From positions 8,597 through 72,596 of IMG/VR virus record IMGVR_UViG_3300005529_000030: a stretch of DNA of 64,000 nucleotides; one strand, 5' to 3'. Position 1 is the stretch's first letter. The number at the start of each line of letters is the position of its first letter. The notes beneath the pieces were generated by a model, which was not told where the DNA came from, made no database searches, and worked only from the letters and a program-made list of their open reading frames with translations. This document shows positions 9,972 to 17,176 of this stretch, piece by piece. Origin of the DNA: a virus. A program made the position numbers and the translations under genes.

Positions 9972-11162
9972 ATGACAGAACAACTTGCTCTTGTCCCAGA
10001 GAATATAACTTGGGATATGGTGAACGCATGGGACGGAAAAACCATGCGAAAATATATGTCTATTCCTGAGTACAGAGACGCAATTACCAAAGTAGTTGCA
10101 TCTAGGTCGTATCAAGAAATTCAAGATTTGGCCGTTAAACAAGAGGAAACGGCATCAGAAGTGAATATTGAAAATTCGGATATTTCTACTAAAGATGCTT
10201 TGGCGGCTCCCGCAGCATTGGAAGATGCTGCTTCTAGTAAAACTACTACAGACTCAGCCCCAATTGCCGTGCCTGAACCTCCAAAAAAGATTATAGTGGA
10301 GTATCAGGTCAGAGATGAAGATGGAAATCCTATTGGTAGGCCCACGCACTTAGAAGCCTACACCGAAGAAGAAATGCGAAAAAAGATAATCGAGGCGCAT
10401 GTTCAGGCGACTCGCGCATTTCATCGTTTAAAGAAACAGAAAGTACAAAGCATTCAAGAAATATCTAAACAAGACGAACCGTCTTCTACTTCCCCTCGAA
10501 CTATGACTGACGAAGAGTTGATGGCCACGTTAAAAGATTTAAGGTCAGACGACCCTCAAATTCAATTGGCGGCCCATAAAAAGTTGATGCAATCTTATGA
10601 AGAAAAGGCCAAAGCAGAACGGGAAGCCAAGGAAGCCGAGCAGCGCGAATTTGAAAGGCAGAAGCAAGTAAGTATTGAGTTTTTGAAAAGACACAAACAC
10701 GATTTTAATAATTGTCAAGCCAACGTGGATTTAATAGGCGAGTATTTTAAGGAAAATAAACTTCCTTGGACGCTTGATAATTTGGAAGTAGCTTTTATAG
10801 CTCTTGAAGATAGGCTGGCACCTGTAGCGACGCCAGCGGTAGAGGTATTACCAGAGCCTAATCCGCCTGTTCCTCAACCAACAGCTACGACAACAGCGGC
10901 GGCGGTTGTGCAGCCGACACCGACTGTGCCTGTCGCTCCTCCGCAGCCAATTAATTCGGTTGCGGTTCCGAGACCAGGAGTCAATGGGGGTATTGTTCCG
11001 GGACAAACTTCAGCACCGCGCCCGTCGCAAAAACCTCAAGGACTAACGATGGAAGAAATCCTTTCTTGGGATGCTCAAACCATGCGAGCGAAAATGCGTT
11101 CGCCGCTACGTGCAGAAATAGAGCGCGTAACAATGGAAGCGCGACTAAGAAGAGGACGGTAA
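9972..11162 (+). CDS. Putative capsid scaffolding protein
   Basis: Coiled-coil and Pro-rich; directly upstream of the major capsid exon 1. Confidence 0.65.
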   Translation: MTEQLALVPENITWDMVNAWDGKTMRKYMSIPEYRDAITKVVASRSYQEIQDLAVKQEETASEVNIENSDISTKDALAAPAALEDAASSKTTTDSAPIAVPEPPKKIIVEYQVRDEDGNPIGRPTHLEAYTEEEMRKKIIEAHVQATRAFHRLKKQKVQSIQEISKQDEPSSTSPRTMTDEELMATLKDLRSDDPQIQLAAHKKLMQSYEEKAKAEREAKEAEQREFERQKQVSIEFLKRHKHDFNNCQANVDLIGEYFKENKLPWTLDNLEVAFIALEDRLAPVATPAVEVLPEPNPPVPQPTATTTAAAVVQPTPTVPVAPPQPINSVAVPRPGVNGGIVPGQTSAPRPSQKPQGLTMEEILSWDAQTMRAKMRSPLRAEIERVTMEARLRRGR

Positions 11163-11207
11163 TCCTAAGCGGCGCGTAACGCCGACTATAGCACGAGGGA
11201 ACTTCAC

Positions 11208-14200
11208 ATGGCTGGAGGCCCAAACCCGGCAATTGCTAATGTCGGGAATATATTAACGGCTCAAAGCATCCTCAAGTAAGGGGCTGTTTCGAGGGAAACA
11301 GAAATCTTCTCTGATTGACTTGGAACCTGAAATGGCGACAAGGCGGAAGCGCAAGCACCGTGAGAGACTAAGCGAGAAGACACCTAAAAGGTGATACGAT
11401 AGTCCGTTCTAATAGGAAAGAAAACTGTTAGGGAAAAACGCTTTGATAAGGAGCTAATCCCGAACTTATTTTTATAGAGTGAAATGCCGAAATTTGATAA
11501 TCTTACTGGAGTGAAATTCGGACGCCTGACGGTTATAAGCAGAGCACCAGACGCCGTTTCTAAATCTGGTTTCGTATATACAAGATGGAATTGTTTGTGC
11601 GATTGCGGAAAAGAGAAAACGATATATGCTGGTTCTTTAAAAAGAGGAGTAACCGTTTCTTGCGGTTGCCAACTTAAACAAGTTTGGCGACGAATAGGTC
11701 TTTCCAGTATCAAACACGGCGGCAGTTCAAAAGATGCGTCGGTAGATAAAAAAATACAATTTCAAATTTTACAACATATCCGTCAGCGAGCCAGAGCCAA
11801 CGGATATGAAACTGATTTAGAATTATCGGATATACCTGAAGTTCCTGATGTTTGTCCGGTTCTCGGAATTAAACTTAAAAAAGGAAAAGGTCCTCTATCT
11901 GATTTTTCTGTATCTATTGATAAAATCAATCCTAATTTACCGTATCTTAAAAAATACAAAAATAATTTGCGATTGATTTCATATAGAGCTAATCGTATTA
12001 AAAACGACGCTACTATTGATGAATTGGAAAAAATCATTCTATATATAAAAATGAGCCGCTCTGAAGAGAGCGAGAATCTTCTCTGATTGACTTGAAACCT
12101 GAAATGGCAACAAGGCGGAAACCGAAAAGGTGCCGTGAGAGACTAAGCGAGAAGACGCCGAAACGGCGATGCGATAGTCCGCTCTAACAAGAATAAAATT
12201 GTTAGTTAACAACAGGAAAGGGAGAAACGGATGCATTTGTTGTTGCCGCCGAGCGTCGTGTTCAACCGAATAACACTGGTATTAACCGCCAGTTTTTTCA
12301 GTACAATACGCTTGTAGGTGACACAACCCAAGCTGGTGATGGTGTTATCGGAGCACCAGAGTTCATTGGTCAGATTTCATCTCCGGCTCAACTGGGCGAA
12401 TGGAATAACTATACCAACTTTAGCGCGTTTGTTGTTGCGAGCGCACTAGATGATTTGGTTGGAAACAGCGCAGTTGAACTTGGGTAAAACTTGATGCCCA
12501 AGTAAAATCACGTTATATCAGATTAGGTCTTTTTCTAAAAAGATGAGTCTGAGACATTGTATATTGCCTTAAGGCAGAAGAGGAACTAGAAGTGCAAAGA
12601 AAATCTTGGCCGTATGTGGCCGGAATATTGGATGCCGAAGGAACTATTGTTATTGGCGAAACAAACGGTGGTTTTTATTCTAAAATAAAAATTTCCAACA
12701 CCAACAAAAAGTTAATGAAGTGGTTGGTTCAAAATTTTGGAAATGTTTTTTATAAAAACCTAAATTCAAGAAGTAATAGAAGTGTTTTATATGAATGGAA
12801 TTGTTTAGCCAATCAACAAGAGGCTTTTCTTTTAGGCGTTTTGCCGTTTTTATTGGTTAAGAAACCTCAAGCTTTGACTTTGCTTGAGTTCAGAAGAACC
12901 GAATCGTTGGAAGAAAAAAAGAAGTTGTGCGACAGAATAAAACAGCAGAATCAGCGTCTTATTGAGAATAAAACTTCTTTTATTAATTCTCATAACAAAG
13001 ACCGTTTTAAATATGCTGCCGGATATATGGATGGAGACGGTGGTTTTTATTTCGGAGATTCGAGCCATACAAGAATATATCTAACGAGCATAGATTTTAT
13101 AATTATAAAATGGTTTTTAGCTAATTTTGGCGGTAAATTCTATAAATACAATTCTTCTAATGAAAATCATTCTGACTACTTTAGGTGGGTTCTTAGCGGA
13201 CGGAAAAATAAAAAGTTGTTTTTGCTTGGAACTATCCCGTACATGATTTTGAAGAGGGAGCAAGCAAAAAATCTTTTACAAATTATAGATTCTAGTTCTG
13301 TTCAAACGACTAATACACGTGAGATTTCCTCGTCGGAAATCAAGAAAGAGTCTTAACTTATTGGTGACAATAAGAGCTTAATTTCTGTGAAGAAAATTAA
13401 CTAAAAACATTTAATCAGGCTGGCCAAAGCATCTCTCAGTTATACGCTGCCGTTGCAGACAGCGCAGCAACTGTAGATTCTCAGGTAAACCAAAGCAGCT
13501 TGTTAACCTCTCCATTTGTTTTGGATTTGGCTACGTTACGTGAATTGAAACAGCAGTTAGTTTCAAAGAACGTACTACCAAACCGAAATGGAAGGTTCGC
13601 AGGAGTTATTTCGCCTAACGTTTTGGGCGATATTTTCAACTCGACCACAGTGAACAACTCCATCAACTAAGGTGGACATTTAACGAAAGTTAAATTGAAT
13701 AAATCAGTTCTAATTGACTCGAACCCTGGGATGGGAACGAGGGCCAAGCGAGACGACGCAGGCTGAGAGAACAAACGAACTGACTCCCAATAGGGAGATG
13801 CAATGTTCCGTTCTTGTGAGAATCATTCTTTTGATTGGAGAAAAATTCGGTCGTTTACTAGTTATCAAAAAAGCGTTTTCCAAACATGGACGCTCTCGTT
13901 GGATTTGTCAGTGCGATTGTGGTAAAACTTATAACGTTTTAGGTCACAACCTTCGCAAGGGAAAAACTAAAAGTTGTGGATGCTTGCGAAAAGAGTCGGC
14001 ACGTAATTTAATCAGTTTCGCCAAGGAAAAAAACTTTTTAAGTCCTGGCGAAGCGGCCTTTAACGTTATGTATTATACGTACAAACAGCACGCAAATGAA
14101 CGAGGATTGGATTTTAGTTTGGAAAAAGATAGTTTTCGGCATTTAACACAAATGAATTGTTATTATTGCGGAGACGAGCCGAAGGATTTTTTCAAGCCTA

Positions 14201-14816
14201 AAGCTCCTAATGGCGGATACCTAAGTAACGGAATAGACCGAAAAGATAACGCGATGGGATATACAATTGAAAATTGTGTTCCATGTTGTCGAATCTGCAA
14301 TCAAATGAAAAGTAATAAATCATACGAAGATTTTATTACTCGTTGTTGGAAAATCACAAGAGGCCACAAGCCCTCTACTTTGGTAGAGTAACAACAAGCG
14401 TTGACCTGTGGAAATATGCAAATATGGATAAGTTCGATAAAATCGCTGGCGCAGACCAGAAGATGGACATCGAACTTCCCGGCACTTCTATCGTATTACG
14501 ACAGACGCCTTTCGTAACTACGACGCCTAATTATTCTGGAACGACAAGCACCGCATATCGTACCTATATCTTCGGACAGTACGCAATGATTGGTGTTTGG
14601 CAGAATGTACCAGGCGATACCGATTTGGGAGACGGAGATTGGCGCACTATTGACTGCAAGGTAGTTGAGAATGCACCAGCGTCTGCGTTTGACCCGGTTG
14701 GTACAATCGGAAGCTGGTGTTCTTATAGATTCCACCAGACGGTAACTCTACCGCCTGCTCGTGGGGCAAACACTCAGCGCCTTCGCTTCATAGATAGCGT
14801 ACCTGCTATTCAGTAG
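11208..14816 (+). CDS. Major capsid protein (N4 gp56-like), spliced from exons 11208-11272, 11441-11467, 12217-12485, 13414-13663 and 14399-14816; 342 aa
   Basis: Exons sum to 1029 nt in one open frame: MAGGPNPAIANVGNILTAQSIL/FDKELIPNL/KGETDAF...AVELG/YQAGQSIS...VISPNVLGDI...NNSI/VDLWKYA...DPVGTIGSWCSYRF...PAIQ*; GAGGG RBS; follows the scaffold gene. Confidence 0.88.
11273..11440 (+). ncRNA. Group I intron 1 of the capsid gene (168 nt, no ORF)
   Basis: P1 with U.G (CCU^C/GGGG), P2 CTGTTTC/GAAACAG, P3 TCTTCTC/GAGAAGA, P7 GAGACTA/TAGTCC, P9.0 GTT/AAC, terminal G11440. Confidence 0.88.
11468..12216 (+). ncRNA. Group I intron 2 of the capsid gene, with an HNH ORF 5' of the core
   Basis: P1 ACUU^/GAGU; core 12075-12186 nearly identical to intron 1; P7 GAGACTA/TAGTCC; terminal G12216. 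Confidence 0.88.
11484..12086 (+). CDS. Intron-encoded HNH-type homing endonuclease
   Basis: KFGRLTV..WNCLCDCG..SCGC N-terminal domain; CPVLG..SIDKINP..N.RLISYRANRIKN. Confidence 0.8.
   Translation: MPKFDNLTGVKFGRLTVISRAPDAVSKSGFVYTRWNCLCDCGKEKTIYAGSLKRGVTVSCGCQLKQVWRRIGLSSIKHGGSSKDASVDKKIQFQILQHIRQRARANGYETDLELSDIPEVPDVCPVLGIKLKKGKGPLSDFSVSIDKINPNLPYLKKYKNNLRLISYRANRIKNDATIDELEKIILYIKMSRSEESENLL
12486..13413 (+). ncRNA. Group I intron 3 of the capsid gene, with a LAGLIDADG ORF; terminal nucleotide is A
   Basis: IGS CUUGAUGCCC pairs 10/10 with ligated exons GGGU|AUCAGG; P3 TCACGT/ACGTGA; P7 ACGACTA/GAGTCT; P8 GATTTCC/GGAAATC; P9 with GTGA tetraloop. Confidence 0.85.
12592..13356 (+). CDS. 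Intron-encoded double-motif LAGLIDADG homing endonuclease
   Basis: YVAGILDAEG and YAAGYMDGDG motifs; two repeated halves. Confidence 0.9.
   Translation: MQRKSWPYVAGILDAEGTIVIGETNGGFYSKIKISNTNKKLMKWLVQNFGNVFYKNLNSRSNRSVLYEWNCLANQQEAFLLGVLPFLLVKKPQALTLLEFRRTESLEEKKKLCDRIKQQNQRLIENKTSFINSHNKDRFKYAAGYMDGDGGFYFGDSSHTRIYLTSIDFIIIKWFLANFGGKFYKYNSSNENHSDYFRWVLSGRKNKKLFLLGTIPYMILKREQAKNLLQIIDSSSVQTTNTREISSSEIKKES
13664..14398 (+). ncRNA. Group I intron 4 of the capsid gene, with an HNH ORF in P9
   Basis: P1 UCCAU^/GUGGA; P3 TCAGTTC/GAACTGA; P7 GAGAACA/TGTTCC; P8 CTCCC/GGGAG; terminal G14398. Confidence 0.85.
13798..14391 (+). CDS. Intron-encoded HNH homing endonuclease (start uncertain, 13798-13831)
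   Basis: KFGRLLV..WICQCDCG..SCGC; CYYCG..NGIDRKDN..GY..ENCVPCC..CN.MK. Confidence 0.85.
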   Translation: MQCSVLVRIILLIGEKFGRLLVIKKAFSKHGRSRWICQCDCGKTYNVLGHNLRKGKTKSCGCLRKESARNLISFAKEKNFLSPGEAAFNVMYYTYKQHANERGLDFSLEKDSFRHLTQMNCYYCGDEPKDFFKPKAPNGGYLSNGIDRKDNAMGYTIENCVPCCRICNQMKSNKSYEDFITRCWKITRGHKPSTLVE

Positions 14817-14918: not shown

Positions 14919-15377
14919 ATGCAATTACCCGATTCTCTTAGTTTAGCTGGGTTAAAGCCGGGAACCAAGGAATATGCTCGAATGACGGGTCGTAGATATT
15001 ACTATCGTCACCGTGACAAGGAAAAGGCCCGCACTAAAATTTGGCGATTGTCTAATCCCGATAAATATAAAAAATGGGTTGAGAAAAACAGAATTAAATT
15101 AATACAAGCGGCTCGGCGACATGACCATCAAGTTACCTCTGAATGGTTTGAATTAAAATTGAAACAACAAAACGGTCGGTGTGCCATTTGTAATAAAATT
15201 CCAAAAAGATTTGATATAGACCACAACCATTCCTGTTGTCAAGGAAGGAAAAGTTGTCATAAATGTAATCGTGGTTTGCTATGTCGAAGTTGTAATACTT
15301 TTATAGGGTTGGCAAAAGAATCTACAGATTTTCTTTTGTCCGCTATTAATTATCTACAACAGTATAATAAGGATTGA
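14919..15377 (+). CDS. Free-standing endonuclease VII-family HNH endonuclease
   Basis: QNGRCAIC...IDHNH...RGLLCRSCN..IG. Confidence 0.85.
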   Translation: MQLPDSLSLAGLKPGTKEYARMTGRRYYYRHRDKEKARTKIWRLSNPDKYKKWVEKNRIKLIQAARRHDHQVTSEWFELKLKQQNGRCAICNKIPKRFDIDHNHSCCQGRKSCHKCNRGLLCRSCNTFIGLAKESTDFLLSAINYLQQYNKD

Positions 15378-16657: not shown

Positions 16658-17176
16658 ATGGAAATTACGGATTTGGAAAAAAGAGTGGCTCTTTTAGAGC
16701 AGAAAGTAAAGAGCTATGAAAAAGATTCTCGTCGCGGTTTGGCAGGTCCTATTGGACCTCGCGGACCTCAGGGACCTCAGGGACCTCAAGGCGAGCGAGG
16801 AATCCAAGGAGATAAAGGCGACACAGGTCCGCAAGGTCCGCAAGGTCCGAAAGGTGACACAGGTCCGCAAGGTCCGAAAGGCGACACAGGTCCGCAAGGT
16901 CCGCAAGGTCCGAAAGGCGATAAAGGCGATAGAGGCGACATAGGTCCGCAAGGTCCGAAAGGCGACATAGGTCCACAAGGTCCGAAAGGCGATAAAGGCG
17001 ATAGAGGCGACATAGGTCCACAAGGTCCGAAAGGCGATAAGGGAGAACCAGGAAGGGACGGCAAAGACGGACTTTCGGGGCCGAGAGGGCCAGCGGGAAA
17101 CATTGAAGCCGCAGTTCAGGCGGCGATTGATGCCGTTATGAAACTTTTGAAAGAAAAAGGGTTGATAAATGGCTAA
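16658..17176 (+). CDS. Collagen-like fibre protein
   Basis: About 40 consecutive Gly-X-Y triplets ([12 protein letters not shown]). Confidence 0.85.
16755..17040 (+). repeat. Tandem 9-nt-unit repeats encoding collagen triplets
   Basis: GGACCTCAG, GGTCCGCAA and GGTCCGAAAGGCGAC repeats. Confidence 0.9.

What the first reader, a model, noticed from the sequence alone, without database searches (positions are those of the whole stretch)
11273..11440. 168-nt ORF-less group I intron, a candidate minimal natural ribozyme
P1, P2, P3, a short P4-P6, P7, P8, P9 and P9.0 all fit in 168 nt. That is shorter than the roughly 200-nt Azoarcus tRNA intron commonly used as the compact model. It must be spliced because exon 1 otherwise reads into TAA at 11277.
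Basis: partly seen in the sequence, partly recalled or inferred. Interest (0 to 1): 0.7.

Follow-up and report, generated by a model that had tools for sequence, protein, structure and literature searches.

The report
Tiny self-splicing intron in capsid gene
A 168-base group I (self-splicing type) intron with no gene of its own really does interrupt the only capsid gene of an uncultured soil phage; it is one of the shortest complete introns of this class, but sister introns of 164-172 bases exist, so it is a compact member of a known class.

Summary
Window 11273-11440 is a 168-nt ORF-less group I intron, the first of four introns in the phage's single major capsid gene. Intron-less homologues fix both junctions (U11272|, G11440|). 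Joining five exons gives a stop-free 342-aa capsid protein that is 303/344 identical to an intron-less relative.

P3-P9, including the P3/P7 pseudoknot and a bulged P7, are supported by covariation in 34 distinct related introns: 96.4% of cells paired, 28/36 pairs compensatory. A covariance model built without the window scores it 135 bits.

Rfam's group I model misses the intron. The intron is a reduced form of a prolific phage intron family (at least 120 core matches in IMG/VR) and lacks the usual P9.1/P9.2 hairpins.

It is shorter than the 205-nt Azoarcus intron, but it is not unique. I found relatives of 164, 165, 169 and 172 nt. The literature also reports degenerate 56-81-nt fungal group I introns, including a 67-nt one with reported activity.

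Self-splicing is untested. No RNA run holds the stretch. The intron carries one unique J8/7 substitution and lacks the family's UAACA tail.

This scan has already noted similar capsid-gene introns on other DNA. Verdict: real, well preserved, a modestly interesting compact member of a known kind.

The parts
11208..11272 (+). Capsid gene exon 1 (ends with 2 nt of a Leu codon; last base U11272 pairs with G11280)
11273..11440 (+). Intron 1: the 168-nt ORF-less group I intron (the finding)
11280..11283 (+). Internal guide sequence GGGG; forms the 4-bp P1 with exon bases 11269-11272
11284..11301 (+). P2 hairpin (7 bp, loop GAGG)
   Evidence: relatives keep a hairpin here with different stem sequences
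11305..11311 (+). P3 5' strand; pairs with 11374-11380 (pseudoknot with P7)
   Evidence: 7/7 pairs with compensatory change
11319..11361 (+). Short P4-P5-P6-P6a domain with an A-rich J4/5-J5/4 internal loop
11364..11370 (+). P7 5' strand with bulged A11365; pairs with 11400-11405; G11366-C11404, next to the bulge, is the inferred guanosine-binding pair
   Evidence: the pair 11364/11405 covaries: AU in 19 and GC in 15 of 34; role of the pair inferred from group I knowledge
11381..11393 (+). P8 hairpin
   Evidence: 4/4 pairs compensatory
11394..11399 (+). J8/7; A11396 is unique to this intron (G in all 33 other family members aligned)
11409..11431 (+). P9 hairpin; followed directly by a 9-nt tail, with no P9.1/P9.2 and no UAACA motif
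11440..11440 (+). Terminal guanosine (omega-G)
11441..11467 (+). 27-nt micro-exon 2, encoding (L)FDKELIPN(L)
11468..12216 (+). Intron 2 (749 nt): same family; HNH-endonuclease-like ORF 11484-12086 lies between P1 and P2; compact core 12073-12207
12217..12485 (+). Exon 3
12486..13413 (+). Intron 3 (928 nt): a different group I family with a LAGLIDADG-like ORF 12592-13356; by homology its last base is A, not G
13414..13663 (+). Exon 4
13664..14398 (+). Intron 4 (735 nt): third copy of the family core (13700-13835), with an HNH-like ORF downstream of P9
14399..14816 (+). Exon 5 (to the stop codon)

Best explanation
Window 11273-11440 is a genuine, functional group I intron in the pre-mRNA of the phage's only major capsid gene.

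Inferred mechanism, the canonical one for the class:
1. The guide GGGG (11280-83) pairs with the exon end UCCU to form P1, with a U.G wobble at U11272.
2. A free guanosine bound in P7, at the G-C pair beside the bulged A11365, attacks after U11272.
3. The terminal G11440 then takes the same site.
4. The freed 3'-OH of exon 1 attacks after G11440 and joins exon 1 to the 27-nt micro-exon.

The neighbouring intron 2 is a paralogue 27 nt downstream that carries an HNH endonuclease gene. It is removed separately.

The 168-nt size arises because this lineage keeps only P1-P9 and lacks the P9.1/P9.2 hairpins that most of the family carries.

Having no endonuclease of its own, the intron probably spreads by being co-converted when intron 2's endonuclease cuts intron-less alleles. 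It probably reached this site from the nearby 'KGET' site, which offers the same ..CCU|C target.

Shown: structure, junctions, conservation. Inferred: the chemistry, splicing in vivo, and the mode of spread.
For: Junctions and product.
- Both junctions are fixed by 52 uninterrupted homologous copies.
- The spliced product is a stop-free 342-aa protein, 88% identical to an intron-less relative.
- The micro-exon codes the conserved peptide. Against the first printed intron-less sequence (L003) I read about five differences, all synonymous; this is a comparison by eye.

Structure.
- Covariation supports P3, P4, P5, P6/6a, bulged P7, P8 and P9: 96.4% paired, 28/36 pairs compensatory, 0/500 shuffles reach this.
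- P1 with U.G at the mapped junction averages 5.56 bp over 34 introns, against 3.34 +/- 0.24 when exons are permuted (maximum 4.0 in 200 permutations).
- Relatives keep a P2 hairpin with different stem sequences.

The core is not degraded.
- A model built without window sequences scores it 135.1 bits, rank 38 of 66 hits.
- It departs from the >=90% family consensus at only 2 core positions; other members show 0-6, with one outlier at 16.
- Against intron 2, 36 pairs compare as 32 identical, 3 doubly compensated, 1 wobble change and 0 broken, while 19 of 64 unpaired columns differ.

Link to group I. A family member aligns to Rfam RF00028 across P3/P7/P8/P9, below threshold.

The gene is needed and the phage persists.
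- Only one capsid gene is present in the 72.6-kb record.
- The identical 1301-nt stretch lies in contigs of 4 runs from 4 studies, 2017-2024. One of them may be the window's own source.

Base rate. In Bastillevirinae phages 8 of 9 tested introns spliced: 4 self-spliced in vitro and 4 spliced only in infected cells (abstract of PMC11878797).
Against: - No RNA evidence: no RNA run holds the stretch, so splicing is inferred and not observed.
- Rfam RF00028 gives no hit on this intron even at E <= 10.
- A11396 in J8/7, an active-site strand, replaces a G found in all 33 other aligned members.
- The UAACA motif before omega-G is present in 33/34 aligned members and absent here.
- P1 is only 4 bp.
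- L2 and L8 are not GNRA loops here, although they are GAAA in many relatives.
- The record is a metagenome assembly estimated 70% complete, so a second capsid gene elsewhere cannot be formally excluded.
Confidence: 0.85

Rival explanations
1. It is a true group I intron that no longer splices on its own. Having lost P9.1/P9.2 and the UAACA tail and changed a conserved J8/7 base, it needs help: a host or phage RNA chaperone, the HNH protein of intron 2 acting as a maturase, or co-folding with the near-identical core of intron 2.
For: - Unique A11396 and missing UAACA.
- 4-bp P1.
- Peripheral hairpins are present in most relatives and absent here.
- In Bastillevirinae, 4 of the 8 introns that spliced did so only in infected cells (abstract of PMC11878797).
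- Cooperative action of two similar tandem introns has been proposed for Twort Orf142 (passages of PMC10136302).
Against: - Compact forms without P9.1/P9.2 occur in both major clades of the family and in many endonuclease-carrying, presumably mobile, copies. The compact ribozyme is therefore a maintained design and not a one-off decay product.
- The core score is mid-range for the family.
- Another member, L072, also lacks UAACA (output).
Confidence: 0.25
2. Intron 1 is a dead relic. The phage either removes 11273-12216 as one unit, using intron 1's 5' splice site and intron 2's core and omega-G (exon skipping, an in-frame loss of 9 residues), or the assembled genome is defective.
For: - Skipping the 27-nt exon keeps the frame, since CU+A makes a Leu codon (from the coordinates).
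- Exon skipping between two highly similar tandem group I introns flanking a 23-nt exon is documented for Twort Orf142, and with a 34-nt exon in Coxiella (passages of PMC10136302).
- The cores of introns 1 and 2 are 81% identical.
Against: - The micro-exon encodes the peptide conserved in all 52 uninterrupted homologues, and as far as I read them its differences are synonymous.
- Every substitution in paired positions since introns 1 and 2 diverged keeps the pairing, which indicates continued selection on intron 1's fold.
- The same sequence persists in contigs from four studies.
Confidence: 0.05
3. It is not an intron. The region would be a spacer between split gene fragments, or a site of translational bypass.
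For: Gene callers and public records annotate such cases as two genes. Examples are the split 'P22 coat protein' and split 'ribonucleotide reductase' CDS pairs that flank family members in two GenBank phages.
Against: - Full group I architecture with covariation.
- A canonical U.G pair and a terminal G exactly at the homology-defined junctions.
- A 27-nt exon cannot be an independent gene.
Confidence: 0.02

Closest known systems
[quoted passage not shown]
   Same: An ORF-less bacterial-type group I intron reduced to P1-P9 with few peripheral elements; called a 'compact 205 nt intron' that 'lacks several peripheral domains' (passages of PMC13168695).
   Different: - This one is 37 nt shorter, and its relatives reach 164 nt.
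- It sits in a phage protein-coding gene and not in a tRNA anticodon loop.
- It is a different sequence family.
- Its activity is untested, whereas Azoarcus is biochemically and structurally characterised.
- That Azoarcus was long called the smallest self-splicing group I intron is my recollection; my phrase searches found no such sentence.
Staphylococcus phage Twort Orf142 introns 2 and 3
   Same: Several group I introns in one phage gene, including two highly similar introns flanking a very short exon (23 nt there, 27 nt here), with possible exon skipping (passages of PMC10136302).
   Different: - The Twort introns are subgroup IA2 according to that paper, and about 250 nt by my recollection.
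- The present family has no P7.1/P7.2 between P3 and P8 and is much shorter.
- Here one of the pair carries an HNH endonuclease gene.
Degenerate small fungal rDNA group I introns (PaSSU and relatives, 56-81 nt)
   Same: [quoted passage not shown]
   Different: - They retain only P1, P7, P10 and one middle pairing.
- They needed about 300 nt of exon context for in vitro splicing, per the same passages.
- The 168-nt intron keeps the complete conserved core.
Rfam RF00028 (Intron_gpI)
   Same: One family member aligns to the whole model across P3, P7, P8 and P9 and to the conserved GACUAA / AUAGUC strands. Intron 3 of the same gene also gives a sub-threshold hit.
   Different: - The finding itself gives no match at the gathering score or at E <= 10.
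- In 8 related loci only 1 match appeared: 23.2 bits against a gathering score of 50.

Membership tests
Group I intron | The 5' exon ends in U, paired with a G of an internal guide sequence (P1) | tested here: met
   U11272.G11280 within the 4-bp UCCU/GGGG helix. Across the family, P1 at the mapped junctions averages 5.56 bp against 3.34 +/- 0.24 in permuted controls.
Group I intron | The intron ends in G (omega-G), and exon ligation restores the gene | tested here: met
   G11440. The spliced CDS is 342 aa without a stop, 303/344 identical to an intron-less homologue.
Group I intron | Conserved core: P3-P8 and P4-P6 domains with a P3/P7 pseudoknot, supported by covariation | tested here: met
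   36 pairs, 96.4% of cells paired, 28 pairs with compensatory change, 0/500 shuffles reach this, slid controls 33-43%.
Group I intron | P7 with a bulged nucleotide next to a G-C pair (guanosine-binding site); A-rich J4/5; J8/7 strand | tested here: met
   The pair 11364/11405 covaries AU/GC across a bulge, and the G-C pair beside it is invariant in 34/34. The J4/5 and J8/7 columns are conserved. That these elements bind guanosine is inferred from the class, not tested.
Group I intron | Match to the curated Rfam model RF00028 at its gathering score | tested here: not met
   No hit at the gathering score or at E <= 10; the best relative scores 23.2 bits against 50. Passages of PMC6125680 say a single alignment such as RF00028 seemed unlikely to capture group I structural diversity, so this failure weighs little.
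Group I intron | GTP- and Mg-dependent self-splicing | not testable with these tools
   No RNA run holds the stretch; a bench test is needed.
Group I intron | P9.0 / P10 pairings at the 3' splice site | tested here: inconclusive
   A 3-bp GUU/AAC P9.0 can be drawn here, but only 11/34 relatives have at least 2 bp, against 8.0 +/- 1.9 in shuffles. A 3-bp P10 can be drawn by eye and was not tested.
Record-short ('minimal') natural group I intron | Shorter than every other natural intron with group I activity or architecture | tested here: not met
   Relatives of 164 nt and 165 nt. The literature reports 56-81-nt degenerate introns, including a 67-nt one with reported activity (PMC3160393 passages). 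It is shorter than the 205-nt Azoarcus intron.
Group I subgroup (IA/IB/IC/ID/IE) | Subgroup-specific peripheral helices | not tested
   No subgroup models were available. The only observation is that P8 directly follows the 3' strand of P3, so there is no P7.1/P7.2 as in IA.

The most novel reading that the evidence does not exclude
The 164-172-nt members of this phage family, including this 168-nt intron, are fully autonomous self-splicing ribozymes. They would then be the smallest natural group I introns that keep a complete P1-P9 catalytic core, about 20% smaller than Azoarcus. Natural sister introns with and without P2 and P9.1/P9.2 would form a ready-made deletion series for studying the minimum a group I fold requires.
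Probability: 0.4. Interest if true: 0.55.

Novelty: new member of a known kind. Interest (0 to 1): 0.4.

Why it matters
- If the 164-172-nt forms self-splice, they give ribozyme structural and folding studies a smaller natural complete-core group I scaffold than the Azoarcus intron. Natural relatives that differ only by the presence of P2 or P9.1/P9.2 would come with it.
- For annotation: this abundant phage intron family is invisible to Rfam's group I model. As a result, capsid, ribonucleotide reductase and other phage genes are recorded as split genes or fragments. A dedicated model such as R1 would correct many viral gene calls.
- The biology itself is already known in phages: group I introns in essential late genes, tandem introns with micro-exons, and ORF-less introns riding on a neighbour's endonuclease.

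Tried and rejected
- Rfam scans gave nothing for the finding. ARAGORN found no tRNA, so this is not a tRNA intron.
- RNA evidence: no RNA holder is listed for the stretch, so splicing could not be observed. The laid runs are DNA contigs only.
- Cultured-phage homologues of the capsid exon: one distant hit only, Tunturiibacter phage Tunturi_3 at 32.5%. It was of no use for mapping junctions.
- Literature. Phrase searches for 'smallest/shortest ... group I intron' and 'smallest self-splicing' found nothing. One search was swamped by unrelated 'smallest group in' matches. 'Find' look-ups for 'smallest' in PMC2813881, PMC7202290, 10.1101/037895 and PMC12042897 were irrelevant. The reviews PMC3984707 and PMC6125680 gave no size range. 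I could not consult GISSD or Rfam length tables or any supplement, so a catalogued complete-core intron under 170 nt may exist.
- A first heuristic for spotting compact 3' ends, the distance to the first TAACA, was unreliable because the motif also occurs inside P9 and L9. It was replaced by a P9-aware version, which still gave 2 false positives among 7.
- In the tree the 'mini' label was assigned automatically, and a few rows are mislabelled (L032, window intron 4, L006/L036). I use that tree only for the statement that compact forms lie on both sides of the 96/96 split.
- P9.0 is not supported at family level.
- The idea that intron 1 is orthologous to the site-22 introns of L006/L036 was rejected. 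Those cores score about 95 bits and cluster apart. Intron 1's nearest cores are intron 2 (80.9%) and 'KGET'-site introns of other phages.
- Slips: a frame error (corrected), a script error (redone), and search terms that were too short (re-sent).
Full report
**What is there.** The window is part of a 72.6-kb IMG/VR virus record. The finding lies just downstream of a portal gene (PF23899). An ORF starting at ATG 11208 runs into an in-frame TAA at 11277. A tblastn of the downstream exon against cultured phages gave one distant hit, to a 'major head protein' (annotation). A scan of IMG/VR gave 73 related loci. In most of them the capsid gene is uninterrupted at its 5' end and reads ...SILFDKELIPNLKGETDAF.... 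A pattern count found 52 such uninterrupted copies among the 75 sources scanned.

**Junctions.** Laid on the window, this reading fixes the junctions:
- Exon 1 ends at U11272.
- The 168 nt 11273-11440 are removed.
- A 27-nt micro-exon (11441-11467) supplies (L)FDKELIPN(L).
- A second intron (11468-12216) follows, and exon 3 starts at 12217.

Two further introns follow (12486-13413 and 13664-14398). Joining the five exons gives 1029 nt = 342 aa with no internal stop, 303/344 identical to the intron-less protein of L004 with one 2-residue gap. The record holds only this one capsid gene.

**Is it a group I intron?** By eye the sequence gives:
- P1 (UCCU/GGGG, with U.G at the splice site) and P2.
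- P3, a short P4-P5-P6-P6a arm with an A-rich J4/5-J5/4 loop, P7 with a bulged A, P8 and P9.
- A terminal G.

MFE folding recovers P1, P2, P3, P8 and P9 (z = -3.30, 0 of 200 shuffles fold as well).

*The family.* The decisive evidence is comparative, because the core belongs to a prolific family.
- The window has three copies.
- nhmmer found 65 copies in 40 of the 75 sources.
- I mapped junctions against intron-less proteins. Of 56 gaps examined, 55 could be mapped. Of those, 44 had the canonical U|...G| ends. The 11 others were merged tandem introns or members of a second family.
- This gave 34 distinct ORF-less introns of 165-247 nt.

*Covariation.* On a plain MAFFT alignment of these 34, the 36 pairs of P3, P4, P5, P6, P6a, P7, P8 and P9 behave as follows:
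- 96.4% of cells are paired, against 79.1 +/- 0.7% in shuffles (0/500 reach it).
- With partners slid by 1-3 columns, pairing falls to 33-43%.
- 28 pairs carry compensatory changes.
- The outermost P7 pair covaries AU/GC across the bulge.

P1 with U.G at the mapped junctions averages 5.56 bp, against 3.34 +/- 0.24 when exons are permuted. Relatives keep a P2 hairpin in the same place with different stem sequences.

*Model score.* A covariance model built from 33 cores without any window sequence scores the finding at 135.1 bits (E 4e-25) over its whole length. That is rank 38 of 66 hits.

*Rfam.* Rfam's RF00028 misses the intron. In 8 related loci it found a single sub-threshold match (23.2 bits, gathering score 50). 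That alignment runs through P3, P7, P8 and P9 and the conserved GACUAA and AUAGUC strands. This ties the family to group I, and it also shows the family goes undetected by automatic annotation.

**Is this copy healthy?**

*For:*
- It departs from the >=90% family consensus at only two core positions; other members show 0-6, with one outlier at 16.
- Compared with its paralogue intron 2, 32 of 36 pairs are identical, 3 are doubly compensated, 1 is a wobble change and none is broken, while 19 of 64 unpaired columns differ. This is the signature of continued selection on the fold.
- The micro-exon keeps the conserved peptide.
- The identical 1301-nt stretch is present, without a single difference, in contigs of four runs from four studies dated 2017-2024 (soil and mine metagenomes). 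One of them may be the window's own source.

*Against:*
- One of the two deviations is A11396 in J8/7, where all 33 other aligned members have G.
- The UAACA motif that precedes the terminal G in 33/34 members is missing.
- P1 has only 4 bp.
- No RNA run holds the stretch, so splicing is inferred.

I put splicing in vivo at about 0.9 and protein-independent self-splicing in vitro at about 0.5. The second figure is in line with the Bastillevirinae survey, in which 4 of 9 tested introns self-spliced in vitro and 4 more spliced only in infected cells (abstract of PMC11878797).

**Why it is so short.** Most ORF-less members (198-247 nt) have two extra hairpins after P9: P9.1, with a conserved CAGAAAUGA-like loop, and P9.2. 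The finding and a handful of others go from P9 almost straight to the terminal G.

The compact ORF-less forms I found are:
- 164 nt: L065:3819-3982, read by hand. It follows a 21-nt micro-exon and an endonuclease-bearing intron, which mirrors the window's arrangement.
- 165 nt: L067, with neither P2 nor P9.1/P9.2.
- 168 nt: this intron.
- 169 nt: L013.
- 172 nt: L059/L060.

The same compact 3' end is found in endonuclease-carrying introns at the same capsid sites, including window intron 2, whose HNH-like ORF (PHROGs 374, 3322 and 1035) sits between P1 and P2.

Among 160 distinct core matches in all DNA held, only about 5 had the compact end with UAACA. All of them lie in this capsid lineage. 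The finding itself was not counted there because it lacks the motif.

In a tree of 57 cores, compact forms lie on both sides of the best-supported split (96/96), so the peripheral hairpins were lost or gained more than once (a few automatic labels in that tree are wrong, see Tried and rejected).

**Origin.** Intron 1's nearest cores are intron 2 of the same gene (80.9%) and 'KGET'-site introns of other phages (77-79%). They are not the endonuclease-bearing introns that occupy the 'FDKEL' site in L006/L036. Its first 11 bases nearly match those of L013's 169-nt intron. Both sites offer the target ..CCU|C. Among the 52 intron-less copies, ATC-CTN occurs in 6 at the first site and AAC-CTN in 31 at the second. 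Transposition to a look-alike site 27 nt upstream, followed by co-conversion with intron 2's endonuclease, is a reasonable inference, but it is not shown.

**How wide the family is.** Model R1 also finds members in two GenBank phages:
- Roseobacter phage CRP-118: between two CDSs both annotated 'ribonucleotide reductase' (76 bits).
- An uncultured podovirus: between two CDSs annotated 'P22 coat protein' (95.7 bits).

**Comparison with what is known.**
- The Azoarcus intron is 205 nt and is described as compact (passages of PMC13168695). The finding is 37 nt shorter.
- It is not the smallest natural group I-type intron. [quoted passage not shown] Those keep only P1, P7 and P10 and needed long exon context.
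- Two similar tandem group I introns around a very short exon, with exon skipping, are documented for Twort Orf142 (23-nt exon) and for Coxiella (34-nt exon) (passages of PMC10136302). Here, skipping the 27-nt exon would stay in frame.
- Earlier notes of this scan describe similar capsid-gene introns on other DNA.

**Verdict.** The intron is real, exact and well supported, and it is among the shortest complete-core group I introns. Its sister introns are as short or shorter, and its activity is untested. It is a new member of a known kind and of moderate interest.

Noticed in passing
window 12486-13413: Intron 3 belongs to a different group I family. It has a sub-threshold RF00028 hit (26.6 bits, E 3.5e-4, at 13158-13374) overlapping the end of a LAGLIDADG-like ORF. 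It has a good 7-bp P1 with U.G at U12485. By protein homology, however, its last base is A and not the near-universal G, and both frame-compatible junction placements end in A. Related introns at another capsid site in L070, L071 and L074 also map to ...A|, while L068, L072 and L073 map to A|...G|.
   Followed up: partly
L065:3029-3982: Another phage repeats the window's layout: a 769-nt endonuclease-bearing intron, a 21-nt micro-exon, then a 164-nt ORF-less intron with neither P2 nor P9.1/P9.2. This is the shortest complete member seen.
   Followed up: yes
window 11272 / 12217: Skipping the 27-nt micro-exon (intron 1's 5' splice site joined to intron 2's 3' splice site) would stay in frame and delete nine conserved residues. 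The two cores are 81% identical, as with the Twort Orf142 pair in which exon skipping is documented.
   Followed up: no
L077:2500-2636 (Roseobacter phage CRP-118) and L078:2500-2648 (Podoviridae sp. ctn9Y15): Members of the same intron family split a ribonucleotide reductase gene in a cultured marine phage and a P22-like coat gene in a spring-water phage. Both records annotate the halves as separate CDSs with no intron. CRP-118 is a cultured system in which the family could be tested.
   Followed up: partly
window 14919-15377: A free-standing ORF with a recombination endonuclease VII domain (PF02945, E 7.9e-14) lies directly downstream of the intron-rich capsid gene.
   Followed up: no
window 16745-17077: A run of at least 14 in-register copies with 9-nt periodicity lies inside a downstream gene (repeat finder family D1). 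It was not examined.
   Followed up: no
window 11100-12400: The exact sequence, with 0 differences, occurs in assembled contigs of four runs from four studies (soil 2017, soil 2020, mine 2024) at word depths of about 3-71. This phage and its intron set therefore recur across samples.
   Followed up: partly
34 aligned family introns (alignment A1): An invariant UAACA just before the variable tail and terminal G (33/34), and a conserved CAGAAAUGA-like L9.1 loop, have no identified pairing partner. The finding lacks both.
   Followed up: partly
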